From Candidatus Omnitrophota bacterium (GTDB lineage: Bacteria > Omnitrophota > Gorgyraeia > Gygaellales > Profunditerraquicolaceae), in contig JBEKHW010000001.1 of the NCBI GenBank assembly GCA_050012075.1, positions 132,766 to 196,765 of the forward strand: a stretch of 64,000 nucleotides of DNA, in the 5' to 3' direction. Positions 1 through 64,000 of the stretch are shown in pieces (the stretch's first letter is position 1; every line of letters begins with the position of its first letter). The notes under the pieces are model-generated. The model searched no databases, was not told where the DNA came from, and was given only the letters and a program-made list of their open reading frames with translations. The position numbers were made by a program, and so were the translations under genes.

Positions 1-3000
1 ATTCTTTGGCGACTCTTTTTAAATCATATCTGTCTTTTTCTGCAAAAGAAGGGATTATTTTCATACCAGTATCGTCTAACCACAGCTTATCCTTATCTAA
101 CCTGTCTGTTAATACTATGTAGCCGAGCGAAGCTATTGTTTTTTCGTATAGTAACACGTATTGCTCTAACTCATTCACCGGATTACTCTTGCCTCTTCTA
201 AAACGCAGTAGCAAGACTACTAGGCTAGCTATACACATTGTTGGGCTGTGTAGAAGTTGATATATTAATCCTGAATCTGGCTTATTAGGTATTTTCTTTA
301 TTTTTTCATAAGTATCTAAAAGATCTTTTTTTGTTTCTGATTTATTTAATAACCAACGCATTGCCTGGGCCACTGCCATGTTGTCTTCTTTTGAGATTTC
401 TTTATTAATATCTCTTATAGTTAAGAGAATCACGTAGTTAATAAAGAAAACTTTTGTCGCAAACATCCTGGAAGTGAATTTCTTTAATTCTTCGCGCAAC
501 TCTGCCGTATCGCCACCCCTATAATGCCGCTCCAAAATCTCAATTGCTTCTTGCAGACAGACAATATTTATCGTATCGTATATCGTCTCTGCCTGCTTTT
601 GGCCGTACACCATTCGCTCATAGACTGCTTTTAAATTACCTAATACTATTGGTGGAGATTCCTCTTTCTTTATTCCAGAATATGCCCAGCGCGGCAATAA
701 TTCTTCCATGATGTACCTACCGGCTTCTTTAATCTCAAGATTATTTTTATTCAATGCTTCAATGCGCGATTTTATTATCCTGGCCAGCGACCGTTTTCGT
801 AGGTGATATGGCAAGACGACATAAGATAAAAATACTGATAAAACCACCACTGCTAATATCGTAAATTCAAGCAGCGAAATTTTACCGTCAGCTGCAAGGA
901 ACTTTTTTATCTGACTTAATCCGCTATCACTGCCAAGGATAAGCGCCAACAATGCAGGTCCGCTATAACAATATAATCCCCTGCCCCCACCCGCCTCTTC
1001 CGCCGGAGAGCTGCCGCGGCCGGTGCCATTTTTTGCCTGGTCTATCCTTTTCCATGCTTCCATGGTATTGCTCAACTCTTCATAAACCTCATCAGCAAAT
1101 CCATCGCGGTTGCCGACATCTTCTACGATAGGAATTATCTCTCCTAGTAATATGAATTCCTTTTCGGCAGAAAGCTGTTTTCCGGCCAAGCTAAATACCC
1201 TCTTTAATAACCCGGCTAATAAAAGTGCTTCGTTGGGTAGGAGGGGCTGCTTGGGGCAAATCGCCCAATAATCCTTTATCGCCTTAACGGCCTTGACTAA
1301 ATCCAAGTGGCGGTCCGACGCATAAACATTACAAAGCCTGTAATGCCCGCTTAGGAGGAATCTCCTGCTTTCGCCGCTAAAATGCACTTCCAGTTTTAGG
1401 CATTCGCCAAACAGTACATCTGCCTCAGACAGCATCTTTTCGGCAGAGTTGTAATCTTCGGCTTTAATCGCCTTATGTACCGCTTTTGTCTTATCGCTAT
1501 ATTGCATTACTTTTGTAATGGCTTCCATTAGCTGCCTCGGTTTCAAACGAAGCTCGATTGGGAAATACACTTCGATGCTTTTACGGACAAAAATATTCCG
1601 CCTTATCTGGAACGAAATCCAGTTAAGCATGTCTTGCCGGCTTCTCTGTACTTGGCGCCGTTCCGAGCTTTCTAAAAGAGAAAACAGGAACTTCACCAAG
1701 ATAACATCCGTGGTTTTAACATGTTCGTGGCTATACCATTTCAGGAATAAACTTAAGGACTCTATAAATAAGCCGGCGGCCTTCTTGAAATTGCCTTCTG
1801 ACGTAGCATTTGTTCCCAAACGCCTATAAGCCAATATCATGAAAGGTATCTCGCAAAGCACCTTTTCGTTAAACCTAGAACGCATCTGTTTATCTACGAT
1901 CTCCCTGGCTGTCTGCAGAAAAACAGCCGCTTCCTTGTATCTGCCTTGCTTCATCCTCTGATGCGCGAAGCGCGTACAAAATTCGCATTCCCACACCTCC
2001 TCGCACGGGCCTTTTCCTGCCGGTGAGCTGCCGCTTCCGCCCGTGGCGCTATCTTCAAGGGTGCCCACCTGGAGGAAGGCCCCAATGGAAATATTCTGGC
2101 CGCTATTCTTTATCAACGCTTTAGTGGAATCTACTAACTTAGATAGAGGCAGCTTCGGCTTGCCGTTTACGCCCATTACAAGGAGTATTTTTGCCAAAGG
2201 CCACTCTGCCTTATCTCCTATAGCGCTATCTATTATGTCAACCAGCTCCATACCTTTATACTTTAACCCTTTTTGCTGGATATCTTCATCGGATAAGACA
2301 GGCAATCGCAAAGCGTTTAATCCTTCCAGTATTGCCTGCCGCAACTGGCGCTCAACTTCCTGTTGTCCGTTTGCTGACGACAGTGTAGGTACTGGTTCAT
2401 CCGTGGGAATAACATCTGGAGGCCTGTAGTAATCGTCATCCCCAATCACGGGCACCTTTCTTAAAGGAATCTCTTTCTTTGACTCTGCCTTAACAGCTTT
2501 TACCGGATGTTTTCTTGTTCCTTTCTTCTCCCATTCTTTCCATTCCTGCCGCAGTTCTTTCAATCCCGCATACATTGATTTCAAAGAAGCCGCTTCTTTG
2601 TTCTTCTTTGCTTCAAGGATCATTATCGCTTCTTCTAATAGCCCTTCTGTAGTTACAAAATCCTGTTCGGACAGGGCCTGGGGTAATTCATCCCACAATT
2701 CTATTAACAGCTCCCAGAAATAGCAGGCCAGATCTATCCGCTGTTCTTCGACAATACTCATCTTTCTTGCCCTATTTTCAGCTGCGATGAGTCTGAATCT
2801 TTCTATCTGCGGCAACTGTTCATCCTGTTTTCTTGCGCCTGCCGCTTTTTTCGCAATAGCCGGAGAGCTGCCGCGCCTACCGCTTGAAAGCGATATTCCA
2901 TCGGGAAATAATTTATCTACATCGATGTCTAACGGCTCTTCCGGGACCATACAGATTTTACCTGCGCGTAAATCAAGCTCAGAAATCTCATTCGCTATCG

Positions 3001-6000
3001 CGATAACAATGTCGAGCCTTCTTGAAAAGAAATAGACCTTAGAAAGTATTCCGTAGGCCATCCGCGCATTATGCAAGATAAAGCCGGGATATTTCGGATA
3101 GTATCGCTTTAGCTCCTTAAGAGTGGTCTTGGCCCACTTTTCTGCTTCTGGCAAATCTCCTGATTGGATACATGCCTCTACAATCTTATGCAGCACGATG
3201 AAGCGGCCTCTCACGTCGCCTGATTCCCTGGATATCTTTTCTAATCTAATTAACTCATTTAACCTTTTGCCGGGATCAATGATTGCAAACGAATTCTTGA
3301 GCCCTTTTTTCACAAAAGGAGTAATGGGCCGCAACCTGGCAGGGCTGTTGCCTTTACTGTCCTCGCCCTGGCCGTAGCCAATATTGTTATTTGTTACGGC
3401 AACCGCGCTACCGGTGGCATCCCCATCGAGCCATTTTCGCCTTATGCTTTTATCAGGAAAGGTGCCTGTCAAAGAACCGGGTTTTTGCGCAATTAGCCTA
3501 TAGGCAGGATTCTTTAACTTATTTTCGAAAGCCAATTCCTGCGCCTCTATATCTCTCCTAAGCTGGGAGCTGATAGCGTCAATTTCCTGTTTGAGCGTTT
3601 TTGCATGCATACCGAAAGAATCGCTTAATTCATCTATGCTCGTACCCATCGCGTATTCAACAAATAGTTTCTGTTTGTAAGCAGGTAATTGCGCCAAGGC
3701 GCTGCGCGCCCTGGAGAATAATTCTAAATCGACGATAGCCCGTTCTGGTGCCTCTTTTTCTGTACTAAAGGTATCCAACCAAGTAGTTACTTTTCTATTT
3801 CCCTCATCTCCATAGCGCGCAGCGGATAAACTGACATTCTCTCGCGAGGCTAAGGAAGCGCGGCTTATAGCATAACCCTTAACCTTAGATCTTACTTTCT
3901 TAAAATATCCGAATTCATCCACTGTCCGCACCTTATATACAGATAAATATTTGCTAAGGATTACATAAAAAGCCAGATTGGCTTCATTAAATAAATCATT
4001 GACCCCTATGCCTTTCAAAGATAGATATTGCCCTTTATAATACCTTCCTTTAAATTCCGAACCCACGGAAAAGGCGGCATGGCCGGTAATATCATAGTGG
4101 GATTTGAGAAATACCTGAGAGGCATTAGTATTGCCTTTTTTAATCTCCCTGCATAAGCGTATTTCGGCAGCGCGGTCAGGCCTTAACTCGTTCTCTTTCA
4201 TATACATGACAAAACCCGGTTCCGACAGCTTGTTCAGCATAATTTTGTCGGTTTCTCCATCGCCGTTGGTAAAGGCCTTGGGATGAATAGCCTCAAGTAT
4301 CCCGTCATCGTAATAATAGCCTCCATTATTTGACGCAGCCAAGATAGGATGCGTATAATCAAGCGCTTCTCCTAAATAGAAATAATCATCCGACAATACG
4401 CCCAATTCTGAAAATATCTGCAGTATATTGTATCTATCAAGCAAATACATTGCCTTTAAAAATACCGTATTTGAATTATTGGAGGGATAGAGGTTTTGAT
4501 AAAGAGCTTCACTCTTTAGATACGGCTCATGCATAACTCTTGCAATAATCCTACGCGCTATCTCAAGCTGGACAAGGCGCGGATGTAAATCTATATCTTT
4601 TAGGCATGGTATAGCGGATAAAAATACTTCCCAAAGCATGGATTGTCTTAAGGGGATATTCTGCTTTTCTTCTTTTTCCAGGCGCATACCGGTAAACATA
4701 CGCAGAAAAGACTTTGCCTGAACAGAGAGCATTTTTCTTTTGCCTTGTAACTCTTCAAAATTATTAAAGGTTACGATGGAGCCGTTGGTATCTTTTAATA
4801 TTCCTGACCAGTACGCCTTATCGTCAATGGATAGTTCAAATCCCTGCTTGTCGTCCTTCAGGCTAAATGCTGTCTTTTGCCTAATTATCTCTTGTAGCTT
4901 TTTAAATCTCTGCTCTTCTTTTTTAGCCCTCTTGCGCCAGGAAGCTAAGGGCGTGCCTTCCTTAATCAATCTATCAACAAACACCTCATTAACATTGGGG
5001 CTATCCATACCATCTATGGCTACAAAAGAACACCATCTGCCTTCGTTTAATACTTCTCTTATATGTTCATCTACGGTATTTTTGGCAATTATGCTGTAGA
5101 CTAAAACCGGTTTAGTCTGGCCAAAACGGTGTTCTCTGTCTGAGGCGTGGTCCATTATCTCAGGCACCCAGTCTTCATCTACAAAGATAGTGATATTTCC
5201 TGCGCAGAAGTTCTTTGACTGGCCTCCGCTCTTTACAGTGGATGCGATTATAGGATGGTCAAAGTTAGGTTCCTGGAATAAAGAAACATCTCTATAATTG
5301 GCGCGCTGCCTGCCTCCTAAGACAGCCAAAGCACCGAGATGGCTATAACGCGCCTGTAGGGCTTTTACTACTTCTCTAAAATTAGAGAAGATGACTATCT
5401 TTTCCTTTCTCTGCAGATGATACTTTACCAGTTCATCCACCTTTTCATACTTGGCAGACGTACAAATTATACCTTCAGGCATATCTTCTACTAAACTCGC
5501 ATCTATGCAGGCTTCTCTACCCCTCATTATCTTGGTCAAGATAATCGCCTTGCTGGGTTTCTTGCCCTCTTTTGCATAGTTTTTGACCCATGATTTAAAA
5601 TCTCCCCAGACCCTGTCATAGACTTTTTTCTGCTCTCCTTTTAATTCCACCTCTACTACGATTTCCTTTTTGGGAGGGAGGTCGCATAAAACTTCCTCTT
5701 TGTAGCGGCGCAGCATAAACCGCCTTAATTCATTATTTAAATTTCTTAAATTTTCAAATGAGCCGGAGAATAACGCGGCAAAGGTTTCTCTTGATTTATA
5801 TCTTTCCGGATAAAGCCAGTTTAAAAGATTGTAAATCTTCATTGCGGAGCGTCCGATAAGAGGAGTAGCGGTAACTAAAATCTTATACTCGGCATCAAAC
5901 TTTCGCAAGGCCTGCATATGGAGAGTTTCGTTACGCATTTCATGTGCCTCATCTGCAATAATAAAGTCGAAATTAAACGACTTTAACCCCGCGACTATTG

Positions 6001-9000
6001 CGTTGTTTCTTAAGCCCTCATAGTGAACAATCACAAAGCGGCAATCTTTGGCTAGTTCAAGCTCCCTGGCTAATTTTTCATTATTTCCCGAGATAACCAC
6101 GGTTTTATTTTGCATCAAGACCTTGGTGAGGATTTCATCCTCCCAAATTTCCTTGGCGCCGTTAGGGCAGACGATTAAGATTTTTTGCGCTCCCCGGCCG
6201 CCATAGGCGTTTAAGGCAGCGGCTATAACCTGAATGGTCTTACCCATACCCGGCTCATCAGCCAGGATAACTCTTTTATTGTCAAGCATAAAAATTATAC
6301 CCGCTACCTCGTAGAGCCTTAAGATAATCTTATCCTTATCTAACCCTTTTATCCTATCTTTGTCTATGTCTTCCAATAGCCGCCGGTAGTATTCCAGTGT
6401 ATTGCCGTAAGCATTTCTGATAATCTCCGAGTTAAGCTGATCTTGCGCTTGCTCATTAAGCTTTTCTAAGAACCGATTATCCCTGACTAAATTCGGATAG
6501 GAAAGCCGGATTATCTCCTGGGTCAGTATGTCAAGCTGGTTTGGCCCGAAAACAACCGGCCATTCTATTTCTCTCATCCTGGTAAAAGATAATGACCGGG
6601 TTCTCTGAGGCATAGCTGCCTTCTTCTCTACATTTCCTCTATCAGCCAAGGCACAAATTGATTTTATGGTATGGGCCAGTTCAGGGCGGCTTAGCTGGTC
6701 GCCATAAAATGCAGAAAGCAAACCAAACGCCCTTTCGGGACGGCCGCAGACATTGGAAATCTTTTCTATCGTGCCGCTATCTACCAGGGAGTCAAGGAGA
6801 GCCTTTTTTGCATCCGTTCTTTTCGTTTGCCTTAAGGCCTTGATTTTTTCTTCAATATAATCCCTGATACCTAAACGAATTAGCCAGCCGTTAATCGTGT
6901 ATACGCTTTCCCCGAAGAATCCGGCTACTTCTTTCTGGGTCATCCTGCGCTCCAGGAACAGTTCTTCCATTTTTTCCTTCAAAAAGTTTGCCTTGTTAAT
7001 CTCAACGAGAGATTCTACAAGCTCTTTTTTTCTTATAAACCCATAGGATTTTAGCTTTTTCATTACCTCAATGAGTTTATATCCGCAAGACTCAAATATC
7101 TGCCGGATTTTCTCTTCAGGTAAGCTTTTCTGTTTCTCTTTCAGCGCCTGGCCTATTATATTCTTTAGCCCTAACTTACCAATCCAATAATCAATGAGAT
7201 AGTTTTGGACGCCAAAATATCCGGCTGTGAGTTCCGCATTGCACCAATCATCCAAATGTACCCTTTCCAGCTCTTTTTTAAAGCTATCCAGAAGCCCTAA
7301 AATACTGAAGATAGCGATGTAATCTAGCCATCTCTCTTGCCTTATTCCTATCCCTTCCATCATCCGTGGAATATTCCAGGCATTATCCTGGCAGAACTTG
7401 GCTAAACCGGAAGGAGAGGTATCTATATTCCTGGTACGCCCTATAAATTCTAATAACCCTGAAGCTATGTTTAATCTCTTGTATAACGCTATTATGGTAG
7501 GCATACTAACACCGAAAATTTTAGGAAGGCTCTTAAAGCTTAAACCTGCCTTTAGATACTCTTCCGGTATCTTGTCGCGGAATTCATCATAAAGCCCTAA
7601 GGAGGCAAATCTTTCCTCTATCATAGGAGAACTGCCTGCTATACCGGCATGGGAAATCTTCTTAAAAGATCTGGCGATATGCCAATTATTTGCTGTTAAA
7701 ATAGCTCTGGCTTTCTCGTTAGGCGGCATAAGTTCCTTTTTCCATTCCCCTACCATAGAAACAGGGATATTGAATTTATGGGCGATTAGATTGTGGTTGC
7801 CGGCCTGCTGACAGTAAACCTTGATAAACTGCCTCTTTAACAGATGTATTGCGCCTAATTCTTCTAATAATTCAATATAAGAGCCATATTCCTTAACTCC
7901 CCGGAGGCGAGCTAACTCTCCACAGGCTATTTCCATATTCCATTTGTGCGCGGTGAAAATGGCTCCTGTCGGTTTCTTCCTGGCTTTAAGACTCTCGGCT
8001 ATCTCCTTATCAATGCCTAAATAAATAAGCCAACGCCTCACCGCAGCCGTACTCACACCGAAAAATCCTGCTACTCTTCCCGGCATCATCCTTTTTTCTA
8101 AGAACAATTCCTTCAATTTGTTCTTTATAAGGAAGGCCTTATTGATGCTGATTAAGAATTCTACTGCCGAGTTTTCTTTTACATTACCGTATGGCTTGAG
8201 CTTAAGAGAAACTTCTCCAATCTTATAGCTGCACTCCTCGAATATCTCTGCGATCTTCTCCTCGCTCAATCCGGATTGCATCTTTTGGAACTCACTGTCC
8301 GCCTTATCTTTTATGCCTAATTCCCTCATTAACATATTGATGGTAGTGTCAGTCACGTTAAAATATTTCGCCATCTTGCCGACTACACAGTTGCAATCTG
8401 AATATACCCGGCTTAGCTCTTTTGTAAAAATATCAAGCATCCCTAACTGGTTAAATGCTTTCATATAGCCAATTGAGTCGCACGTAATGCATAGTTTCTG
8501 CAGAATCAATGGGATATTCCAGGAATTATGCTGACAGAACTTCTCTAAAGAACCGGAGGACTTAGATATTACTTTATGGCGATGCATGGCCTTTATGGCC
8601 TCCGGCTCTAATTGTAATCTTTGCAATAGACTCATTGAGATCCTTATATCTTGACCGAGAGCTTTTGCCAACTTAGTAATGCTATATCCTGCCCTTATGT
8701 ATAATTCCGTCACCTTCCTGCGGAATTCTCCGTAGAGTCCCCAGGAGGCAAAGGCTTCTTCCAAGACATTGCCCCTTCCGTATTTAAATGAAAGCTCTTT
8801 CAGTGACTTGCCAATGTTCCATTTGTTCTTTGCTAAGACACCTCTTGCCTCTTTATCTAGAGGCATAAACTTATCCTCCCATCCTTTTACCGTAGAGGCA
8901 GAGATATTGAATACTTTAGCGATTAGATTATGGTTGCAAAGCTGTTGGCAGTAAACCTTGATAAACTGTTTTTTCAAGATGTGCGCCGCGCCTAATTGTT

Positions 9001-45232: not shown

Positions 45233-45560
45233 TAGAGCGATTATAAAACCGTACTCATCTTTACCTTCCACAAAAGCCTTTGTCCCGTCAATAGGGTCAA
45301 TCACCCAGACGTATTCCGCCTCTCTTTTTGGCTCAATCCCTTCCAATTCCTCCTCTGCTATAATTCCATGCTCGGGGAATTCTTTTCTAATCAACCTGAT
45401 TGCCATCCGCTGAATTTCCTGATCGGCTTCGGTGACTATGCTGTAATCTACTTTTGCTCCCAACGACCTCTCTCCTAAAGACGATTTCTTATAATCACTC
45501 ATTATAATCTTTGCTTTTTGGGCTATTGTTCTGGCGATCTCGGCTGCCGCAGCCACAGAG
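44930..45560 (-). other. Inositol monophosphatase / FBPase (IMPase)-family unit, disrupted by the 45241-45360 shifted block
   Basis: 'SIVTEADQEIQRMAIRLIRKEFPEHG' in frame 1. 'IAEEELEG...EYVWVIDPIDGTKAFVEGKDEYGF' readable only in frame 0 (45241-45360). 'ALMRNGMPILALLYAPEW' again in frame 1. Confidence 0.55.
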
Positions 45561-57500: not shown

Positions 57501-57541
57501 AACTTGATAAACCTAATTGGCGCATCCGTTAACCTTGCCAT
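45332..57541 (-). CDS. Giant multidomain protein, fragment 2, in the same frame as fragment 1. Contains PfkB kinase-like, TM plus HExxH, multi-TM, mutarotase-like, tandem RpiB-like and CPBP protease-like units, more membrane blocks, and the N-terminal part of the IMPase-like unit. The start is unresolved. The first in-frame ATG is at 57539-57541, but a GSSPA junction motif (57662-57676) lies in-frame between the TAG and that ATG, so the frame probably does not really restart. Ends at TGA 45332-45334, which sits inside a +1-shifted block.
   Basis: Frame = 1 mod 3 verified at 57478, 57598, 56620, 56431, 56053, 55111, 53374, 52420, 51160, 50734, 50086, 49693, 48559, 47698 and 45613. Confidence 0.5.
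47100..47700 (-). other. Multi-TM membrane block
   Basis: 'EDIAKDILVPLLIIVLTIALVVSLLRF' (47641-47698, verified) plus further hydrophobic helices downstream. Confidence 0.35.
49750..50700 (-). other. CPBP-family (CAAX protease-like) intramembrane protease-like unit with extra TM helices
   Basis: 'IAGSLWAPIIEEVLFRG' EExxxR motif (50037-50086, verified), 'FAILSNAH', 'SITMHFLINL' HxxxN. Flanked by ASSPS (50720-50734) and GSSPA (49679-49693). Confidence 0.5.
50830..51700 (-). other. Tandem ribose-5-phosphate isomerase B (RpiB/LacAB)-like units
   Basis: 'KIAIGGDHGAFALKEKVKSELEKSGWVVLDQGTF...CTTGIGISIATNKFNNVRCALCHTV' (51121-51160, verified), preceded by a second partial RpiB-like copy. Confidence 0.6.
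51850..52700 (-). other. Aldose-1-epimerase / YeaD-type mutarotase-like unit
   Basis: 'GLPLPGGIPFMFPWTSRIHN' (52361-52420, verified) resembles the YeaD 'RGGIPICWPWFG' motif. Confidence 0.4.
52950..53350 (-). other. Multi-pass transmembrane block (about 4-6 helices)
   Basis: Consecutive hydrophobic ~20-aa segments in the frame translation, e.g. 'LIVSAVCLTALVTGAIGLSLFGI' and 'ATIFVTGLFLGVAMQGLIAGIG'. Preceded by ASSPA at 53360-53374. Confidence 0.4.
54720..54900 (-). repeat. Short tandem repeat (~90 nt x2) encoding 'TLTHLATRK...LTLR' peptide repeats
   Basis: 'cgcgtggccagatgggtaagggtgag' and 'cgcgtagccagatgcgtaagcgtcca' repeat on the + strand. Confidence 0.4.
55150..55990 (-). other. Membrane-anchored HExxH zinc-metallopeptidase-like unit
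   Basis: TM helix 'ISNALLLVALLAIEIGAAFLLLY' (55925-55990, verified). 'THLHEALHIN' HExxH (55630-55660, verified). Second hydrophobic helix 'SYLSWAVPTGMALYVLLLGAILTA' near 55150-55230. Confidence 0.4.
56440..57540 (-). other. PfkB-family sugar kinase-like unit (1-phosphofructokinase / tagatose-6-P kinase type)
   Basis: 'NKTMVMGVNICGA...GGGAANTAKAV' N-terminal glycine-rich motif and 'VVSPVGAGDSANAGFV' (56581-56620, verified). Followed by GGSSPATV at 56417-56431. Confidence 0.55.
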
Positions 57542-57697
57542 AATTCCATTTCTCTTGCTTACTTCCAGGCCCCTTACTGCCTTTGTTGCTATCTTTAAGG
57601 ACTCCGCGGTTATCGCTCCCTGCAAATATTCAGCCAGTTCTTTTTTAACAGTATCAACAATCTGCTGGAGAGCTTCCTGCCCGGGCACTGCTGCCGG

Positions 57698-60600
57698 GCT
57701 AGAAGCTTTCTTGCCGGCTTCTGCTAAAATATGGGCCGGGTTCATCGTAGCGATATCGGCCCCGGATGCAAGCAGCCGGTCAAGCAGGTTCTCGTTATCG
57801 GTAAATCCGATGATACGGATATCGTTACCCAGGATATCACGCACCTCTTGGGCTATGTAATGGCTGTCATCTACCAAAGCGCTCTGCTTGAGAGGAATAT
57901 TGTGTTTATTAAGCAAATCACCGATAGCGATGATCTTTTCCCTGCTAGAGGTGCCCCTTCTTTTCTCGTGAAATTCCCCAAAGAGAGGAATATTCTCCCA
58001 GATGGGCTGCGTCCTTTCCGGAATGTTGGATGTAGCCAGGAAGACTTTGATACCCCTCTGTTTTAAATCCAGGATCAATTCTTTAATGCCGGGGGTAAGC
58101 AGGCTCTCCGAATCAGTATCTAAAATCTTTTGCGTCCGCTGCCATCTTTCTTTTTCAAAAATATTCAGATATTCCGCGGGAGAAAGGAATTGCCTTGTGG
58201 ATTGGGATGCCTTGGCCTGCCTTATCAGATCACCTATCGCCCCTATTTCCGGTAGCCCCCGCGTATACTCATCATAATAAGCCCTGCCAGCCCTCAGATT
58301 TTGCTCTGTCCTCTCTAACTTCAGGATTTCAAGATATATCGTATCTACAAAGCAGTCCCGCGTCAGCCCTATATTAATGACAGTGCCGTCCATATCAAAA
58401 ACCACTGCCTTGAGATTACGGACCCATTCCGGAACAGCAAATGGAGCGGCCGGAGAAGAAGCACATTCTTCTTTGATTTGCTTCCATAATTCGTCTGCTT
58501 GCGCCTGGGTATGGCTGAAACCTAACTGCTCATTTAGGCATAACCTTGCAATGCTTATCTTACCCAGGCCTTTAATATCTATATACTTCGTTAAAATATC
58601 TCTATTAGTTTGGCCATCTTCAACTTTAAATGTTTCTCTCAGTATTTCTGTGATGAATTTTTCTTTCCCCTGTTCAGAGATAAGAGGCTTTCCCTTGAGA
58701 TTCTGAAATGCAGCTGCTCTTGTTTTAAAGGACAATTTTTCGGAAGAAATACCCTCGAACTGTTCTGCCCTATCACTCCCCTCCAAGGGTATCGTCATAC
58801 CGACATGTGCAGGTACAATCGTAGCAGGCAGGTTGCCATCGACTAACCTGTTGACTAATGCTTGTTTTGCTTCTTCTGGGGCGTGGACCAAGACAAGGTT
58901 CTTGGGATTTATCTTGCCGATAACGTACGCCAGGCCTCTTTGGTCGGCATGAGCCCTAAAGAGGAATTTCCTGACCTCGGCGTTTACCTGTATAATCGCT
59001 TCGCCTTCACCAGACGGAATAGCTATTTTCTTTCCCTTCTGAAGATTGAGGATCTGTGCCGCAGGGCTTTCTTCCGTGGCATAACCTACGAAAAAGATGG
59101 CATTAGCAGGATTACCGGCCATCTGCGTAAGATACAACAGGGAACAGCCTCCCACAAACATTCCTGAACCGGCAATTATAATATGCGGCTCTTTTAGTTC
59201 AAGAATCGACTTTCTTCTGTCGCGGCCTACCGCAATAATATTACTGCCATCCTCGAATAAATATTCTGAGCCACGTACACGGTATCTTTTGTAAAGCCCG
59301 GCCGTCCTTATCGCAAGGCCGTCAATATAGATATTGGCCTGAGGAATAATACCCTTTCGTTGATATTCCTGTAAAATAAGGGCTATCTCCGTTGACCTTC
59401 CTATCGCAAAAGCAGGGACCAGGATAGAGCCACCCCTGCGCAAAACCTCTGCTACCGAAGCGGCAAATTCTTCTTTTACGGATTGACGCGGCGGCAGATT
59501 TGCTTCTTTGCCATAAAGCGCCTCCATGATCAATAAGTCGATTTCTGCCGTAGATAGCCGCATAGAATCCACCGAATTCTGTTTTTTCACGGAAATATCC
59601 CCGGAATAAAAAATGTTACCGTAAGGAGTGGCTATGATTACCGAGGCTGCGCCAAGGATATGCCCGGCAGGAATAAAGAGCACCTTGATGTCTTCCGAAA
59701 GCCTGTACCATCTTCCAAAATCAACGTATCTAAAACGCTTTGAAATATCCGCAAACTCTTTTCTATTAAACTCATTAGTGAGTAAAATCCTGGCTAAGCC
59801 AAAAGTAGGAGCTGTAGCAAGTATCTTGGCATCCGGCAACTGCCTTGCTGCCTCTATCAGTGAGCCGGAATGGTCAAAATGGGCATGGGTAATGATTATA
59901 TGGCCTATCCGGCCTTCTACATTGCTTAGGTCAAGGGGCTCCAGGGTTTTGGGGTCTGCTCCGATATCTAAAAGCAACTTTTCGCCGGCAATATCTGCGA
60001 GAAATGCGCTCTTACCCGGCTCATCCACTCCGCCTAAAGGCGTTATCTTTATTTTATCTCTCTTCAAAGGAGATTCATCTTCAAGCAGCGCCCGGCACAA
60101 GCCATCATAAGATTCCTGCACGCTCCTATCATTCTCAAAGAAAGATTTTCCGGCCACAAACACATTGGCCCCTGCCTTGGCTGCCTTTCTTATGGTGAAA
60201 CGGTTAATGCCACCGTCTATTACAATATCTCCGTCAAAATGATACTCATTCCTTAATATCCCGATATTCCTTACCGCTATGCCTTGCTGGTCAAACTTCT
60301 GGCCGCCCCTGCCCGGATAAACGCTCATCTGCAATACTCTATCGATGTACTTACGGTTTTCCATGATGAACCTGCAAATAGCATGGATATCGGCTTCGGG
60401 GGATGGGTTTAGAGCAAGTGCGGCAATCCCGTCGTAGGCCTTAATCAACTTAAGGCAATCCAATAAGCGCCCTTTATCTTCAAACCCCTCCCGGTGCAGA
60501 GTAATCATCTTGGTTCTGAATAAGATATAGTCCCGCACCAGGCGCTCAAAGCTGCGGGAGATCGCCCGGCTATCTGCCATTACCATCAGGTGCGCATCAA

Positions 60601-63600
60601 ACATTGTGCCGGTATCAGCCTGCCGAATAATCCTCCATACCCCCCTCGGAGTCAATTCCTTTAAAGTATCTTGCGCATTTGCCTGGACTATGGCGCTGCC
60701 TACGCCATTATTGCTGTCTATTACATCTATGTGAATGATAACCGGAATGGGGCCTTTCTTTCCTATCTTTATTGCCTGAAGCGCTTTCTGGCGCCTATCT
60801 GCCTTTGGAACACTGAGCACCGACGGCTCAATGATAAATCTCTGGGCTGTCGGAGAACTTGCCTTGTAAAGAGCCGGAGCCGGTTGTCTTGGATATAATG
60901 AACCGGCCGCTACGGTGGACTTATTTAACTTTTCCAGCTGCGCCTGTGCAGCCGCGTAGTCCAATACATTGCCGCCTAAATTTAGTAGAAGATCGCGAAG
61001 GCGATTAGTATAAAAATGTATCCCAAGCGCGCCCAAAAGATTATTGACTTCTTCATGTATCAGGCCACCTGTAACAGCAATGAATTCATGTTTAATAATA
61101 TCTTCACTGCTCATCTTCTTTAATTTAGGAGAAAGCTTCATTGTCACAGAAGATAGATGTTTGCCCTGATGTTTTATGGAGGCTTCCATAAGCAATTCGT
61201 GAACCGCTATTAAAACAGGGTGGCCCTTTGCTTCTTCAGGAAGCGAGGCGGCGTTTCTCATTCTTTTTTGGATTTGATCTATTATCAAACCTTCATGTAC
61301 TATTATTGCTCTTCCCTGTGGATGGTTATACAAACCTTGCAGGCAAAGCGGCAATCTTTCAACGCCGCCTATCTCCTGAAGCATCTCTCCCGTTATCACG
61401 CAAGCACCGCAGTCAAATTTCTCACTTTTTGTTGTATATACCTGAACTCCTTTGGCGATCTCCGGTTTACTTATACCGTGCGTGATTCTCGCAATATCCT
61501 CTTCTAACTGCTTACGAAAATCCTCTACTATATCCAGGCCTTTTGTTAAAGATTCGACGGCATTACCATTAATTAAATCTTTTACCAAGTCCTTTACCTC
61601 TTCTCTATCTTTCCCATCTGCAGCGAAATCTAAGCCATCCTGCCCGGATTTACTTTCCAGATTATTACCGGCCGCTGCGGCAAACTTTGCCCCCACCAGC
61701 CACGGAGAGGATAGCAAAGTCTCTAAAATACGCCACAGCGGCCGGATTATTGAAAGCGCTTTCACTTTAAGCCGTAAAAATATGCTTACTGAATTATCAC
61801 AAGATAAAACGGGTGAAGCAGGTGAAGACCCGGCATAACCCGCAGCGCGGCCATTCATCGCAAACTCGGTAAGAACCGGGGCATCTTGCGCAAGATAGTC
61901 ATAAGAAGGCACGGGAGCTTTAGTCACAACATACTTTTCAATATTCAGGATAAAATCCCTCCATTCAGAACTGGCTTTTATAATCTCTCTTAAGAAGCCT
62001 TGCCAGGAGCTTCTTAAGCCATATTCCTTGGGGGTCACGTGTAGATGGCTCCAATACCGGCCTTGCTGGTCGTGTTCTCCGCCTACCATAGGACTCATCT
62101 GCCCCTTATGGAGGAGCCATTCCCGTAAATCAATCATCACCGGAACCCCAAAATAGGCTGCCAAGATTAACAGTTCAATAAATCCTTTGACCGGGCCTCC
62201 CAACGTTGCCAATGACCTCTCGTCATAGTTGGAAGGATAGATGAGCAGTTCCGGCATCCTGATAATGGCATATTTTAATGACTCAACTAAATATCTTCCG
62301 GCATCATTATTACCTTCAACCATTCTCCTGTAGTCGCCGTAAACATTAGGATAATAAACCTTTACTTCGACCCCGGCCTCTTTTGCCAGCCGCAGCAATT
62401 CTTTTCTGTCTGCCTCTTCATACGCCTCCATGATAAATTTAAATTTCTTGCCTTTTACGGAAGCAAATATCATGGACCAGGGCTCTGGCTGCTTTGCCAG
62501 ATAATCTGGGGAGAAATATGTGCCTAAGTTCCGTTTTAAAAGAAGGTGCGGCAGGTCAGCACGCGCTCCTATCGCACCTGAATTAATATGCTCCTGGATA
62601 GAAGTAATATAATATTCCATTACTTCCGTGTTAAAAGGATTGAGGAATACCTGGTCAACATTGGGGACCCCGGCGAATCCTACTAAATGTTTGACGTATA
62701 CCGGCCTGGGCTGCTGGCCATCCGCAACCCTTATCACGCAAGAGCCGCCGTTTTTACTGACTAAATCATCAACAAACCGCTGCTGCATGATTGCAGCAGC
62801 GCGCCTTCGGTACATCTCACCCTGTCTGGCATCTAATTCGGTATACATGGTCCAGCGATAATTTTTCTCCGTAATGGCGTCAGGGGATAACCACGGGATG
62901 AAATCAACAATAACGCCCATTCCTAATTCCGCGGCACGTCCGGTAAATGCCCGCAATGCCTGCCTAGGTTCATCTCCGTTACACAATTGAGGATCGATCT
63001 CCCGCATGCTATATATCGAAAAACTATTACCGTGACAGTCGGTTAATGTAATATCTCCTATCGTAGCTTTCTTGGTCAGATAATTGTTTACGGAGATGGT
63101 AGGGTAGTTCGGTTTTTCTCCGGTGAGGATATACTGCGCTGCGGCAGGAACCCGATGCAGCGATTTTGATATTAGTCCCTTCTTGTACAGATTATAAATA
63201 TAAACTTCTCCTACGCCGCTATCTGCCAATATAGGCAAAATCTCTTCGGCTTTATTGAAACTGTTTTCATAAATAACTGCCCCGCTCTTTGGATCGACCA
63301 CTGACCCGATATCAGCTAAGTTCATAGCAACCGTCAATTCCTTGATTTGATGGCCGTTGCTTAACGCCTGATCTTTTAAAGGAGATGATCCTACCTGGCT
63401 ATTTTGATGGGCTGCGGCAGAAAGAGAGCCCCCACCAGCCACGGAGAGGTAATCCTTTTCTACATTAATGTTTTTATTTCTATCTCTCTGCACAAAGCCA
63501 TTCTCCGAACTTGCCTTTACTGTCGTCGGCGAAGAGCCGTTTGAGTTATTTCCCTGGAAGACCGTGTTTCTAAGCACCTCCCATGTTAAACCTCCCTTAA

Positions 63601-64000
63601 TATTTATTTTAATATTCCTGTACTCACCCCACCCTTTGTAGATACGCAAATAACCGTTATGGATATGCAAGGGAATTATAAAAAGGAGTTCCTTTTTCAT
63701 TCTTTCATCTTTAAATACAGAAGATAATTCTTCGAATTCTTTGATACAACCTTCGCTGTCTAGCATCCAAGACTTATTGGCTGCGGCAACTGCTTCGTAA
63801 GGATCGTTATGCAGGAAATAGTTGCCTGATCCAAACTCTTTTTTAAATTTATCAACCATAAAACTATTCTGCTCGTGGTAATTAGTCAGCCAAAGGTGGG
63901 ACATTTCCTCTAACAACTGGAGCAGGAATTCTTTTGACGACTCTGCTTTTATTAAAACAGCTTTATCTTCCAAATAGGCTATAGCTCCTACAGTTCCTTT
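57698..64000 (-). CDS. Giant multidomain protein, fragment 1. Its 5' end lies beyond the window. Contains GH13-like, ribulose-phosphate-3-epimerase-like, beta-CASP MBL RNase-like and HAD-like units. Ends at an in-frame TAG (57698-57700), possibly an artefact.
   Basis: Minus frame (codon starts = 1 mod 3) translated by hand at 63841-64000, 62701-62820, 60713-60753, 59858-59905 and 58377-58470. All are open and protein-like. TAG lies at 57698-57700. Confidence 0.6.
57720..58440 (-). other. HAD-superfamily hydrolase-like unit
   Basis: 'KAVVFDMDGTVINIG' DxDGT motif I (58377-58410, verified), 'KVFLATSNIP', 'IIAIGDLLN'. Preceded by ASSPA at 58448-58462. Confidence 0.5.
58800..60080 (-). other. Beta-CASP metallo-beta-lactamase ribonuclease-like unit (RNase J / CPSF73-like)
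   Basis: 'IIITHAHFDHSGSL' HxHxDH motif (59858-59905, verified), downstream 'FYSGDIS', 'ILVPAFAIGRSTEI', 'RAHADQRGL' (58931-58957). Confidence 0.6.
60150..60770 (-). other. Ribulose-phosphate 3-epimerase-like unit
   Basis: Motifs 'GPIPVIIHIDVIDS' (60713-60753, verified), 'MFDAHLMV', 'LQMSVYPGRGGQKF' and 'DGGINRFTIRKAAKAGANVFVAGKSFF' (60194-60217), in RPE order. Confidence 0.6.
61832..63376 (-). other. Possible GH13-like (alpha-amylase superfamily) TIM-barrel unit (low confidence)
   Basis: Translation contains 'ELGMGVIVDFIPWLSPDA' (62881-62930), resembling GH13 region I, and 'GGSCVIRVADG' (62701-62760), resembling region II. The unit is flanked by GSSPL (63377-63391) and GSSPA (61817-61831). 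Confidence 0.3.

What the first reader, a model, noticed from the sequence alone, without database searches (positions are those of the whole stretch)
1..64000. Entire 64 kb window is one continuous minus-strand reading frame (at least 21,333 codons)
Hand translation at more than 40 points from 82-102 to 63841-64000 always falls in the same minus frame (codon first bases = 1 mod 3) and gives protein-like sequence with recognisable catalytic motifs. No intergenic gaps, RBS-plus-start structures or strand switches were seen. The + strand has only short antisense ORFs (largest 189 aa). No complete ORF of 60 aa or more in this minus frame appears in the supplied track. This is consistent with a frame that enters and leaves the window, although the track may be filtered. 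The only interruptions found are two 60-nt-aligned shifted blocks. A frame open over 64 kb at this base composition cannot arise by chance, so this is a giant-gene locus of at least 21 thousand aa in window, with both ends outside.
Basis: seen in the sequence. Interest (0 to 1): 0.95.

Follow-up and report, generated by a model that had tools for sequence, protein, structure and literature searches.

The report
Giant multi-enzyme gene with junction motif
The whole 64 kb window is one uninterrupted piece of a real giant bacterial gene (at least 21,333 codons) of the kind already described in Omnitrophota and related bacteria; it strings together about 44 protein-sized modules, and a strict short peptide ([K/R]-[G/A]-Ser-Ser-Pro-Ala) between them may mark where such giant proteins are cut or modified.

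Summary
Observation confirmed. The minus frame whose codons start at 64000, 63997, and so on has 0 stops in 21,333 codons. The other two minus frames have 1,562 and 1,625. That frame has the best coding score in every 300-nt window.

It is not a PKS/NRPS and not a repetitive adhesin. It is a mostly non-repetitive chain of diverse domains:
- sugar-phosphate enzymes: Rpe, RpiB x2, PfkB, aldose epimerase, HAD, IMPase;
- a beta-CASP nuclease, a formyltransferase, HATPase, a GlnD-like NTase and a SidJ-like domain;
- sigma70-r4, alpha-CTD and HTH arrays, an SNF2 helicase, and a CPBP intramembrane protease.

It also has about 25-29 transmembrane helices. 61% of it has no Pfam family.

The nearest homologue is an Omnitrophota giant-gene fragment (49% identity). 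This suggests the stop lies about 0.7 kb beyond base 1.

Giant Omnitrophota genes are already published (up to 147,155 aa), so this is a new member of a known kind.

One feature appears to be new. SSP occurs 44 times (3.6 expected) and GSSPA 19 times (0.02 expected), with varied codons. It never falls inside a Pfam domain, and it delimits modules the size of free-standing enzymes. I read it as an enzyme recognition site, most likely for processing. Cleavage is not shown.

The parts
2..64000 (-). One continuous coding frame, 21,333 codons, open at both window ends (aa 1 = bases 64000-63998)
   Evidence: 0 in-frame stops. Best coding frame in all 300-nt windows. No frame-shifted 60-nt block.
1004..63535 (-). 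44 copies of the junction peptide core Ser-Ser-Pro (consensus [K/R]-[G/A]-S-S-P-A-[A/T/G/V]). First bases of the S-S-P codons at + coordinates 63535, 63388, 61828, 61711, 60859, 58459, 57703, 56428, 56053, 55108, 53371, 50731, 49690, 48556, 45952, 45610, 44695, 43681, 42817, 41047, 40093, 38839, 35755, 35398, 34420, 28573, 25663, 24796, 23455, 20842, 20677, 20635, 18853, 16996, 16561, 15484, 14740, 13765, 12262, 10534, 7633, 2869, 2029, 1012
   Evidence: SSP 44 vs 3.6 expected (P 4e-32), SSPA 32 vs 0.31, GSSPA 19 vs 0.02. [GA]SSP 36 vs 0.55, with no near-variants. Both TCN and AGY serine codons are used. None lies inside a Pfam envelope, and the median spacing is 347 aa.
60116..60841 (-). Ribulose-phosphate 3-epimerase-like domain (aa 1054-1295), starting 6 aa after junction 1048
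   Evidence: PF00834 E 1.7e-19. NF004076 E 1.6e-25, below the curated cut-off.
58823..60076 (-). MBL / beta-CASP / RMMBL nuclease (aa 1309-1726), HAHFDH motif at aa 1372
   Evidence: PF10996, PF07521, PF00753. aCPSF1 TIGR03675 E 4.6e-64. PDB 3af5/2ycb/FttA E 1e-41 to 1e-44. 49% identical to Omnitrophota fragment P0001 over aa 1303-1843, with the homology ending 5 aa before junction 1848.
57863..58411 (-). HAD phosphatase domain (aa 1864-2046) in a 248-aa module between junctions 1848 and 2100; FDMDGT motif
   Evidence: PF00702 E 1.9e-9; motif; module size.
56453..57376 (-). PfkB-family sugar kinase (aa 2209-2516) in a 421-aa module between junctions 2100 and 2525
   Evidence: PF00294 E 1.3e-24. 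TIGR03828 E 1.8e-29, below the cut-off.
51926..52543 (-). Aldose 1-epimerase-like domain (aa 3820-4025)
   Evidence: PF01263 E 1.6e-5, 24.9 bits, just under the gathering score of 27.
50816..51556 (-). Two tandem RpiB/LacAB sugar-phosphate isomerase domains (aa 4149-4260 and 4283-4395); CTTGIG catalytic motif in the second
   Evidence: PF02502 E 3e-53. TIGR01120 rpiB 162 bits, above the cut-off of 138.65. PDB 3he8 E 1e-32.
49691..50722 (-). CPBP / Rce1-like intramembrane protease module (aa 4427-4770), bounded exactly by junctions 4424 and 4771; motifs EEVLFR (4649), FSDSH (4694), HFLIN (4730)
   Evidence: PF02517 E 5.2e-11; the three catalytic motifs are intact.
43754..55981 (-). Main cluster of predicted transmembrane helices (aa 2674-6749, about 20 helices)
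   Evidence: Kyte-Doolittle 19-residue window, threshold 1.7. The method is crude; the hits at aa 1440 and 1607 lie inside the MBL core and are probably false.
44762..45556 (-). Inositol-monophosphatase / FBPase-family domain (aa 6149-6413) in a 301-aa module between junctions 6131 and 6436; DPIDGT motif
   Evidence: PF00459 E 3.6e-37; motif; module size.
40208..40909 (-). Formyltransferase (Fmt-like N and C domains, aa 7698-7931) in a 314-aa module between junctions 7652 and 7970; HPSVLPRLRG motif
   Evidence: PF00551 E 4.6e-21 and PF02911. TIGR00460 E 3e-33, below the cut-off. Motif.
38858..39214 (-). GHKL ATPase domain (HATPase_c, aa 8263-8381), ending 7 aa before junction 8388
   Evidence: PF02518 E 2e-5, 25.5 bits, just under the gathering score of 26.4.
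33914..35737 (-). Second transmembrane cluster (aa 9422-10029, 3 helices). No helix is predicted between aa 10030 and 21045.
34421..35389 (-). TPR-containing module, copy 1 (aa 9538-9860), bounded by junctions 9535 and 9861
   Evidence: 31% identical over about 330 aa to copy 2. TPR_2 E 1.5e-6.
23828..24847 (-). GlnD-type nucleotidyltransferase-like region (aa 13052-13391)
   Evidence: PF08335 E 1.2e-7. TIGR01693 E 8.6e-7, far below the cut-off.
22373..23272 (-). About 9 tandem 36-aa repeats (IKEC..AG.IAVEAVKNNLPGIS..DV), the only clear DNA-level tandem array
   Evidence: TRF period 108, 6.1 copies, 78% matches. Protein register.
20000..20590 (-). SidJ-related pseudokinase-like region (aa 14471-14667)
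   Evidence: NF033874 E 3.9e-11, 42.5 bits, far below the cut-off of 300.
12548..14200 (-). Transcription-type DNA-binding domains: sigma-70 region 4 (aa 16601-16646), RNA polymerase alpha-CTD-like (16674-16728), duplicated HTH_3 units (16811-17151)
   Evidence: PF04545 E 3.5e-11, PF03118 E 4.8e-6, PF01381 E 1.7e-10. Internal duplication.
6809..10501 (-). Diverged internal repeats: 63-aa units (aa 17834-18020) and about 190-aa HTH-containing units (aa 18052-19064)
   Evidence: Self-BLAST, 30-60% identity. HTH_28 E 2e-6 and Cro-like hits.
5120..6301 (-). SNF2-family helicase/ATPase (aa 19234-19627); GMGKT and DEAH motifs
   Evidence: PF00176 E 2.6e-43, PF04851, PF00271; motifs.
1013..2020 (-). 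TPR-containing module, copy 2 (aa 20661-20996), bounded by junctions 20658 and 20997
2..745 (-). First half of a conserved C-terminal cap (aa 21086-21333), cut off by the window edge, preceded by a transmembrane helix at aa 21046-21064
   Evidence: These were the only hits of an exhaustive HMMER search of 1.84e9 proteins: P0080 E 6e-16, P0081 1.2e-7, P0082 1.3e-6, P0083 1.4e-6. The alignment places the window end 215-240 residues before the relatives' C-terminus.

Best explanation
SHOWN:
- The window is an internal-to-near-C-terminal piece of one real giant protein-coding gene on the minus strand.
- Its product is a mostly non-repetitive chain of about 44 protein-sized modules (median 347 aa). 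They include sugar-phosphate enzymes, a nuclease, a formyltransferase, signalling and nucleotidyl-transfer domains, many DNA-binding HTH/sigma-type domains, an SNF2 ATPase, an intramembrane CPBP protease and TPR scaffolds. There are about 25-29 membrane-spanning helices.
- The modules are separated by a strict peptide, [K/R]-[G/A]-S-S-P-A, that is conserved at the amino-acid level and not at the DNA level.

INFERRED:
- The organism is an Omnitrophota-like or other PVC-group bacterium.
- The gene belongs to the published class of giant multi-enzyme membrane-anchored proteins.
- The gene ends about 0.7 kb beyond base 1 in a conserved C-terminal cap.
- The ATP- or cofactor-dependent modules (kinase, GHKL, SNF2, formyltransferase) must act in a cytoplasm, either the cell's own or a prey cell's.

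PROPOSED MECHANISM:
The giant chain is made as one membrane-inserted precursor. The junction peptide is the recognition site of a lineage-specific enzyme, most likely a processing protease, so the precursor works as a polyprotein that yields many separate enzymes and regulators in fixed stoichiometry. The embedded CPBP protease or a protease encoded outside the window are candidates.

My sub-confidences: real single giant gene 0.95; junction = module boundary 0.9; Omnitrophota/PVC origin 0.75; junction recognised by an enzyme 0.65; actual cleavage 0.4.
For: Real gene:
- 0 stops in 21,333 codons, against about 1,600 in each off-frame.
- Coding signal in every window.
- More than 20 different families matched in that frame, with intact catalytic motifs DPIDGT, HPSVLPRLRG, HAHFDH, GMGKT/DEAH, FDMDGT and CTTGIG.

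Not repetitive: only local diverged duplications and one tandem array.

Junction motif:
- SSP 44 vs 3.6 expected; GSSPA 19 vs 0.02; it is the most over-represented 3-, 4- and 5-mer.
- The core is strict, with zero near-variants.
- Both serine codon families are used.
- 0 of 44 lie inside Pfam envelopes (P 0.0014).
- Modules match free-standing enzyme sizes: HAD 248 aa, IMPase 301, Fmt 314, PfkB 421.
- Homology to the Omnitrophota fragment stops 5 aa before a junction.
- Both copies of a duplicated module are bounded by junctions on both sides.
- No SD+ATG follows any junction.
- The CPBP module has an intact active site.

Affiliation:
- The best homologue is MCU0652569.1, a 1,909-aa partial ORF that fills a 5.7 kb Omnitrophota contig.
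- C-cap relatives include a 5,475-aa protein of a Planctomycetia MAG and 16 metagenome loci.

Literature: giant multi-enzyme, TM-rich ORFs in Omnitrophota; cleavage is suspected but the sites are unknown.
Against: - No direct evidence of transcription, translation or cleavage.
- The source contig was not found in any collection, so the gene ends, the neighbours and the taxonomy are inferred.
- The nearest Omnitrophota fragment (P0001) and 14 of the 16 C-cap loci have no SSP enrichment, so the junction motif is lineage-specific and is not a general feature of giant genes.
- No classical soluble protease family (C39, S8, S1) was found in the window.
- A CPBP protease cleaving soluble linkers has no precedent that I know of.
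- A strict motif could equally be a phosphorylation or glycosylation site.
- Most enzyme modules score below NCBIfam equivalog cut-offs, so their exact activities are uncertain.
- The TM prediction is crude.
Confidence: 0.5

Rival explanations
1. Same real giant gene, but the product stays in one piece. It would be a giant membrane-tethered scaffold or 'metabolon' in which [K/R]-[G/A]-SSPA is an uncleaved hinge, possibly a site for Ser phosphorylation or O-glycosylation, or a prolyl-isomerase site that helps the modules fold independently.
For: - The junction flanks are only slightly more polar than average, as expected for short hinges.
- No soluble protease family was found in the window.
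- Published work reports peptides from the V. archaeovorus giant ORF but no defined cleavage products, and a conserved parvulin-type isomerase next to giant genes.
- A Ser-Pro core is typical of proline-directed modification (general knowledge).
Against: - Passive linkers are normally variable in sequence. Here the S-S-P core is invariant, with zero near-variants and position-specific preferences at -2, -1 and +3.
- The modules have the sizes of complete free-standing enzymes.
- A polypeptide of more than 2.3 MDa with about 25 helices poses severe folding and insertion problems.
Confidence: 0.35
2. Effector polyprotein. The chain, or its cleaved modules, is delivered into or onto a prey or host cell. 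This would resemble MARTX toxins, where effector domains are released from one huge precursor.
For: - The window contains domains that recall host-manipulating effectors: a SidJ-related pseudokinase, a GlnD-type nucleotidyltransferase, an SNF2 ATPase, many HTH/sigma-type DNA-binding units and an archaeal-type beta-CASP nuclease.
- Omnitrophota are described as predatory or parasitic, and giant-ORF peptides are enriched in attached cells.
- The enzyme modules are divergent paralogues rather than housekeeping orthologues.
Against: - No secretion signal, translocation domain or toxin family was detected in the window.
- The SidJ and GlnD hits are weak (42 and 28-32 bits).
- About 25 transmembrane helices argue for retention in the producer's membrane.
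- The neighbouring secretion genes could not be examined.
Confidence: 0.15
3. Assembly or sequence artefact: a chimeric or collapsed contig, or several genes fused by sequencing errors that removed the stops.
For: The source contig and reads are not available. The sequence has no match, not even to itself, in the 5.8-billion-cluster protein set, GTDB representatives, JGI metagenomes or IMG/VR.
Against: - Removing every stop over 64 kb by error is impossible.
- GC content, skew and codon signal are uniform.
- The lineage-specific junction motif is spread over the whole window, with a largest gap of 1,949 aa, which a join of unrelated DNA would not show.
- There are almost no DNA repeats that could cause a collapse.
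- No RBS-plus-start structures follow the junctions.
Confidence: 0.03
4. Megasynthase (PKS/NRPS) or repetitive giant adhesin, the usual explanations for very long bacterial ORFs.
For: Length alone.
Against: - No KS, AT, C, A, TE or KR motifs, and a single chance GxDS.
- No PKS/NRPS, Ig-like, cadherin, RTX, dockerin or TSP3 family in Pfam or NCBIfam.
- The sequence is mostly unique.
Confidence: 0.01

Closest known systems
Giant 'multi-enzyme metabolic cluster' proteins of Omnitrophota (Nielsen & Lui 2026, bioRxiv 10.64898/2026.06.07.730766; class 1 of 916 proteins of 10 kAA or more, longest 147,155 aa)
   Same: - Longer than 10 kAA.
- Many distinct Pfam families tile the chain with none dominating.
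- Sugar-metabolism, kinase, HAD and HATPase_c content.
- Transmembrane helices.
- Large Pfam-dark fraction.
- Sequence-unique (no close homologues).
- Nearest homologue is an Omnitrophota fragment.
   Different: - The host is not verified.
- Strong content of transcription-type DNA-binding domains and an SNF2 ATPase.
- A strict recurrent junction peptide; that paper contains none of the word stems cleav, linker, motif, polyprotein, processing or proteol.
- A C-terminal cap shared with much smaller proteins.
'Archaeovorins' (West-Roberts et al. 2023, bioRxiv 10.1101/2023.11.21.568195; type: the 39,678-aa protein of Velamenicoccus archaeovorus LiM)
   Same: - Giant, TM-rich, enzyme-bearing ORF.
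- Glycolysis/pentose-type sugar-phosphate enzyme domains are embedded.
- TPR units.
- Divergent domains.
- Post-translational cleavage is suspected.
   Different: - The defining glycosyl transferases, methyltransferases, glycosyl hydrolases, NUDIX and SecA-DEAD domains were not found in the window.
- The N-terminal C39/S8 region lies outside the window.
- That paper states that cleavage points are unknown, whereas this gene offers 44 candidate sites.
Unnamed 'capped' multi-enzyme proteins P0080 (2,408 aa), P0081 (5,475 aa, Planctomycetia MAG CAZYPU010000007.1), P0083 (2,017 aa) and 16 metagenome loci
   Same: - Homologous C-terminal cap (E 6e-16 to 1e-6).
- Variable enzyme cargo between conserved ends.
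- P0081 and P0080 carry a few related S-[S/A]-P-A linkers.
   Different: - They are 4 to 20 times shorter.
- Most lack any SSP enrichment.
- The window protein's N-cap and the second half of its C-cap cannot be seen.
MARTX toxins and viral polyproteins (functional analogy only)
   Same: One very long precursor made of independent functional modules, separated by short recognisable junctions.
   Different: - No homology.
- No CPD, 3C or NS3-type protease.
- Cleavage is not demonstrated here.
- Far more modules, and many membrane spans.

Membership tests
Omnitrophota very long proteins, multi-enzyme class (Nielsen & Lui 2026) | Single ORF of 10,000 aa or more | tested here: met
   21,333 codons without a stop, and still open at both ends.
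Omnitrophota very long proteins, multi-enzyme class (Nielsen & Lui 2026) | Many distinct Pfam families tile the polypeptide, with none dominating by copy number | tested here: met
   More than 20 distinct families, at most 2 copies each apart from TPR/HTH units.
Omnitrophota very long proteins, multi-enzyme class (Nielsen & Lui 2026) | [quoted passage not shown] | tested here: met
   29 hydrophobic 19-mers, about 25 of them outside enzyme cores. The method is crude.
Omnitrophota very long proteins, multi-enzyme class (Nielsen & Lui 2026) | Encoded in an Omnitrophota genome | tested here: inconclusive
   The best homologue of the beta-CASP module is an Omnitrophota MAG protein at 49% identity. 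The C-cap relative is from a Planctomycetia MAG. The source contig was not found and the window has no marker gene.
Archaeovorins (West-Roberts 2023) | [quoted passage not shown] | tested here: not met
   Within the window only a CPBP peptidase of that set was found. The rest of the gene is unseen.
Archaeovorins (West-Roberts 2023) | Divergent SecA DEAD helicase / preprotein-binding domain | tested here: not met
   No SecA family hit. The helicase present is SNF2/ResIII. One could still lie outside the window.
Archaeovorins (West-Roberts 2023) | N-terminal C39 or S8 peptidase near a signal peptide; total length over 30,000 aa | not testable with these tools
   The N-terminus lies beyond base 64000, and the source contig is unavailable.
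Capped multi-enzyme proteins (P0080/P0081/P0083 group, unnamed) | Conserved C-terminal cap of about 500 aa ending ...SLQALQAA | tested here: inconclusive
   The first half is matched (aa 21086-21311; E 6e-16). The second half would lie beyond base 1.
Capped multi-enzyme proteins (P0080/P0081/P0083 group, unnamed) | Conserved N-terminal cap of about 240 aa | not testable with these tools
   There is no match inside the window. The N-terminus is outside it.
PKS/NRPS megasynthases | KS, AT, ACP or C, A, PCP, TE domains and motifs | tested here: not met
   The motif scan found none, and there are no such Pfam or NCBIfam families.
Repetitive giant adhesins (Ig-like, RTX, dockerin/TSP3 types) | One repeat family dominates the chain | tested here: not met
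   Only local diverged duplications and one 36-aa array (about 300 aa) in 21,333 aa.
Proteolytically processed polyprotein (viral or MARTX-like, by function) | Demonstrated cleavage at defined inter-module sites by a cognate protease | not testable with these tools
   Candidate sites (44 x SSP) and a candidate protease (the CPBP module with intact motifs) exist. Cleavage needs proteomics or biochemistry.

The most novel reading that the evidence does not exclude
A cellular organism expresses dozens of otherwise separate enzymes and regulators as one gene-sized-module polyprotein. A strict, lineage-specific processing site ([K/R]-[G/A]-S-S-P-A) separates the modules, much like a picornavirus-style polyprotein but about ten times longer. 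This would give the first defined cleavage map for a bacterial giant protein. It would also show that 'giant genes' can be fused operons whose products are released after translation.
Probability: 0.3. Interest if true: 0.85.

Novelty: new member of a known kind. Interest (0 to 1): 0.62.

Why it matters
Giant genes of 20-440 kb are now known to be common in Omnitrophota and relatives. It remains open whether their products work as one molecule or are cut into pieces. The 2023 study says explicitly that the lack of information about cleavage points blocked further analysis.

This gene offers 44 precisely placed, statistically unambiguous junction peptides. They coincide with module boundaries, and one module is an intramembrane protease with an intact active site. 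That turns the open question into a simple experiment: look for peptides that start, end or are modified at K-G-S-S-P-A.

The link to a family of 0.9-5.5 kaa proteins with conserved end caps and variable enzyme cargo also suggests how such genes grow, namely by inserting modules between fixed ends.

Tried and rejected
- PKS/NRPS reading: motif and family scans were negative.
- First homologue search with a 5,000-aa query failed on time.
- A dark module (aa 11813-12779) found nothing in 5.8 billion clusters, not even itself, so the source is not in that collection.
- Looking for the source or close relatives with the last 500 aa in GTDB representatives, JGI metagenomes and IMG/VR found nothing.
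- A profile search with the C-cap alignment through the word-indexed tool returned only P0082.
- The single-sequence AlphaFold model of the C-cap protein P0082 was unusable (pLDDT 38.7). No fold search was run, and the fold of the cap stays unknown.
- Scanning 27 junction-delimited dark modules one by one against Pfam added only TPR and HTH-type hits.
- Internal translation starts after junctions: 0 of 44 have SD+ATG. Rejected.
- Recombination scar or DNA-level signal for the junction: rejected, because both TCN and AGY serine codons occur at both positions. The second Ser does favour TCT (24 of 44 vs 21% background).
- Compositional (S/P/A-rich linker) origin of the motif: rejected, because the flanks are near background and near-variants are absent.
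- Promoter- or terminator-like sites inside the ORF are not above shuffled expectation in bases 1-20000.
- Literature search for GSSPA found nothing relevant.
- Regex search for S8, S1, C39, Lon and rhomboid signatures was negative. Two HExxH motifs (aa 2784 and 9055) are unverified.

Full report
**1. The observation**

The reverse-complement frame that begins at base 64000 has no TAA, TAG or TGA in 21,333 codons. The other two minus frames have 1,562 and 1,625 stops, and the three plus frames have 599-1,336. With about 7.5% stop codons in the off-frames, the chance of such an open run is of the order of e^-1600, so it cannot be chance at 44.6% GC.

The frame shows the positional base composition of real coding DNA. 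It has the best codon-usage score in all 1,062 sliding 300-nt windows. GC content and strand skews are uniform.

There is no tRNA and no Rfam family.

No 60-nt window has another open frame that outscores frame 0. I take them for line-reading slips.

**2. What the frame encodes**

It is not a megasynthase. None of the KS, AT, C, A, TE, KR or DH signatures is present, and no such family appears in Pfam or NCBIfam.

It is not a repetitive adhesin. Self-comparison finds only local, diverged duplications. Tandem Repeats Finder finds one real array, about nine 36-aa units at 22373-23272.

The chain carries a diverse set of domains, all in the same frame (aa numbering, aa 1 = bases 64000-63998):

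| Domain | aa range |
|---|---|
| Ribulose-phosphate 3-epimerase | 1054-1295 |
| MBL/beta-CASP nuclease | 1309-1726 |
| HAD phosphatase | 1864-2046 |
| PfkB sugar kinase | 2209-2516 |
| Aldose 1-epimerase | 3820-4025 |
| Two RpiB isomerase domains | 4149-4395 |
| CPBP/Rce1 intramembrane protease | 4427-4770 |
| Inositol-monophosphatase/FBPase family | 6149-6413 |
| Fmt-like formyltransferase | 7698-7931 |
| GHKL ATPase | 8263-8381 |
| GlnD-type nucleotidyltransferase | 13052-13391 |
| SidJ-related pseudokinase | 14471-14667 |
| DUF6923 repeats | 14760-15054 |
| Sigma-70 region 4 | 16601-16646 |
| RNA-polymerase alpha-CTD-like | 16674-16728 |
| XRE-type HTH units | 16811-17151 |
| About 190-aa HTH-bearing repeats | 18052-19064 |
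| SNF2 helicase | 19234-19627 |
| Two TPR modules | 9538-9860 and 20661-20996 |

The beta-CASP nuclease is closest to archaeal aCPSF1/FttA, Integrator-11 and Cas14.

Catalytic signatures are intact: DPIDGT, HPSVLPRLRG, HAHFDH, GMGKT and DEAH, FDMDGT, CTTGIG.

Most enzyme modules score below NCBIfam's equivalog cut-offs; RpiB passes. They are therefore divergent paralogues rather than plain housekeeping genes.

A hydropathy scan finds 29 candidate membrane helices. They cluster at aa 2674-6749, 9422-10029 and 21046-21267, and there are none in the 11,000 residues between aa 10030 and 21045.

About 13,000 residues (61%) have no Pfam family, even when the modules are scanned one by one.

**3. The junction peptide**

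Frequency and consensus:
- Ser-Ser-Pro occurs 44 times against 3.6 expected (P 4e-32). SSPA occurs 32 times against 0.31, and GSSPA 19 times against 0.02.
- These are the most over-represented 3-, 4- and 5-mers of the protein.
- The consensus is [K/R]-[G/A]-S-S-P-A-[A/T/G/V]. Positions further out are at background.
- The core is strict. [GA]SSP occurs 36 times, while the near-variants [GA]S[AT]PA, [GA][AT]SPA and [GA]SS[AG]A do not occur at all.

Conservation at the peptide level:
- Both serine positions use both the TCN and AGY codon families, and proline uses all four codons.
- So the conservation acts on the peptide, not on DNA or RNA, and a recombination scar is excluded.
- The second serine does prefer TCT (24 of 44 vs 21% background). 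This remains unexplained.

Evidence that the sites mark module boundaries:
- None of the 44 lies inside a Pfam envelope (P 0.0014).
- The median spacing is 347 aa.
- Modules that hold a recognisable enzyme have the length of the free-standing enzyme: HAD 248 aa, IMPase 301 aa, Fmt-like 314 aa, PfkB 421 aa, CPBP 344 aa.
- Homology to the closest foreign sequence (Omnitrophota fragment P0001) runs from aa 1303 to 1843 and stops five residues before junction 1848.
- Both copies of the duplicated TPR module are bounded by junctions on both sides.
- No junction is followed by a Shine-Dalgarno plus ATG (0 of 44; random expectation 0.98), so the modules are not separately initiated.

**4. Relatives and likely origin**

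The window is not in the collections I could search:
- A 967-aa dark module found nothing, not even itself, among 5.8 billion protein clusters.
- The last 500 aa found nothing in GTDB species representatives, JGI metagenomes or IMG/VR.

The best hit of the Rpe-to-PfkB stretch is MCU0652569.1. This is a 1,909-aa partial ORF that fills a whole 5.7 kb contig of a 'Candidatus Omnitrophica/Omnitrophota bacterium' MAG. It is 49% identical over the nuclease module. All other hits are 800-900-aa free-standing nucleases at about 30% identity.

An exhaustive HMMER search of 1.84 billion representatives with the last 1,200 aa gave only four hits, all to aa 21086-21311:
- P0080: 2,408 aa, on a 163 kb JGI contig with ordinary bacterial neighbours.
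- P0081: 5,475 aa, on CAZYPU010000007.1, an 'uncultured Planctomycetia bacterium' MAG.
- P0082: 505 aa.
- P0083: 2,017 aa.

The three long proteins (P0080, P0081 and P0083) share a conserved N-terminal cap of about 240 aa and a C-terminal cap of about 500 aa that ends …SLQALQAA; the 505-aa P0082 matches the C-terminal cap only. Their middles are unrelated and hold methyltransferase, PIG-L, GHKL and other domains.

Sixteen further loci with this cap were found in JGI metagenomes, with ORFs of 0.9-5.5 kaa.

The window protein aligns to the first half of the cap, and the window ends 215-240 residues before the relatives' C-terminus. I infer that the gene stops about 0.65-0.75 kb beyond base 1 and that the N-terminus lies beyond base 64000.

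P0081 has its own weakly enriched linker, [S/F/P]-APAD-A-G (APAD 5 vs 0.15 expected), plus GSAPAD, ASAPAD and SSSPA. P0080 has PSSPAA and RGSAPAG. The Omnitrophota fragment and the other cap loci have no SSP enrichment. The strict SSPA junction is therefore specific to this lineage.

**5. Comparison with what is known**

Giant ORFs longer than 20 kb occur in most Omnitrophota classes. The V. archaeovorus LiM ORF encodes 39,678 aa with 42 helices, and its peptides are enriched in attached cells (PMC10066038).

West-Roberts et al. 2023 curated ORFs up to 85,804 aa. They defined 'Archaeovorins' (enzyme-rich, including sugar-phosphate enzymes) and 'Dockerin-type' proteins. [quoted passage not shown]

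Nielsen & Lui 2026 report 916 proteins of 10 kAA or more, up to 147,155 aa. Their class 1 is 'multi-enzyme metabolic clusters', 94% have TM helices or signal peptides, and most are sequence singletons. The text contains none of the word stems cleav, linker, motif, polyprotein, processing or proteol.

The window fits that class 1 on every feature I could test except the host, which is only inferred. It does not show the Archaeovorin-defining GT/MT/GH/NUDIX/SecA set within the window. A literature search for GSSPA gave nothing relevant.

**6. How it most likely works**

Shown:
- One continuous coding frame.
- Independent, gene-sized modules with intact active sites.
- Membrane spans.
- A strict peptide at module boundaries, conserved at the protein level.

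Inferred from general biochemistry: the kinase, GHKL, SNF2, nucleotidyltransferase and formyltransferase modules need ATP, NTP or folate cofactors. They must therefore act in a cytoplasm, and the TM-free 11,000-residue stretch lies on one side of the membrane.

Proposed: the chain is made as a membrane-inserted precursor, and the junction is the recognition site of a dedicated enzyme. A strict five-residue motif with side preferences is what protease sites in viral polyproteins look like, and it is not what passive linkers look like. Processing is therefore my first choice (about 0.4). The embedded CPBP protease has intact motifs EEVLFR, FSDSH and HFLIN, which makes it a candidate, although CPBP enzymes are not known to cut soluble linkers. 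A protease outside the window is the other candidate.

The main rival (about 0.35) is an uncleaved hinge that is phosphorylated, glycosylated or isomerised at Ser-Pro. A delivery/effector reading (about 0.15) is compatible with either. It is suggested by the SidJ-like, GlnD-like, SNF2 and HTH content and by the predatory lifestyle described for Omnitrophota. An artefact is very unlikely (about 0.03), because the lineage-specific motif and the codon signal run evenly through the whole window.

**7. Verdict**

The added value lies in three results:
- the junction-peptide map;
- the link to a capped family of much smaller multi-enzyme proteins;
- the predicted nearby C-terminus.

The junction map makes the long-standing question 'are giant proteins cut, and where?' directly testable.

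Dead ends: AlphaFold on the cap (pLDDT 38.7), word-indexed profile searches and module-wise Pfam scans gave no further function.

Noticed in passing
window 22373-23272 (aa 13577-13876): About nine tandem 36-aa repeats (IKEC..[AG]G.IAVEAVKNNLPGIS..DV.GW) at 78-86% DNA identity. This is the only recent-looking expansion in the gene. It has no Pfam family and contains conserved Cys.
   Followed up: partly
window 58823-60076 (aa 1309-1726): The beta-CASP nuclease module is closest to archaeal aCPSF1/FttA, eukaryotic Integrator-11/CPSF73 and type VII CRISPR Cas14, rather than to bacterial RNase J (RNase J family model TIGR00649 E 2.4e-13, against aCPSF1 4.6e-64; a solved RNase J chain E 2e-6).
   Followed up: partly
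window 49691-50722 (aa 4427-4770): The CPBP/Rce1-type intramembrane protease module has all three catalytic motifs and sits exactly between two junction peptides. It is a candidate processing enzyme. Function untested.
   Followed up: partly
window 55640-55654 (aa 2784) and 36824-36838 (aa 9055): Two HExxH motifs. The first lies in a 312-aa junction-bounded module flanked by transmembrane helices (aa 2674 and 2928) and could be a membrane zinc protease. No family match.
   Followed up: no
all 44 junctions, second Ser codon: The second serine of S-S-P uses TCT in 24 of 44 cases, against 21% of all Ser codons. This is a mild nucleotide-level or codon-pair bias on top of the peptide conservation, and it is unexplained.
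   Followed up: no
window 6809-14200 (aa 16600-19064): An unusual concentration of transcription-type DNA-binding units (sigma-70 region 4, alpha-CTD-like, XRE HTH x2, arrays of HTH-bearing repeats of about 190 aa) lies just upstream of an SNF2 ATPase. This content is not highlighted in the giant-protein papers I read.
   Followed up: partly
window 20000-20590 and 23828-24847: Weak but specific hits to a SidJ-related pseudokinase (E 3.9e-11) and to the GlnD nucleotidyltransferase region. Both are protein-modifying enzyme types known from effectors and signalling.
   Followed up: no
L001-L017; P0080-P0083: An apparently undescribed family of 0.9-5.5 kaa proteins with a conserved N-terminal cap (about 240 aa), a conserved C-terminal cap (about 500 aa, no Pfam family, always ending ...LQAA or similar) and unrelated enzyme cargo in between. 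One member is from a Planctomycetia MAG.
   Followed up: partly
whole window: The sequence has no match, not even to itself, in the 5.8-billion-cluster protein set, GTDB r232 species representatives, JGI metagenome contigs or IMG/VR. It therefore comes from a source outside these collections.
   Followed up: yes
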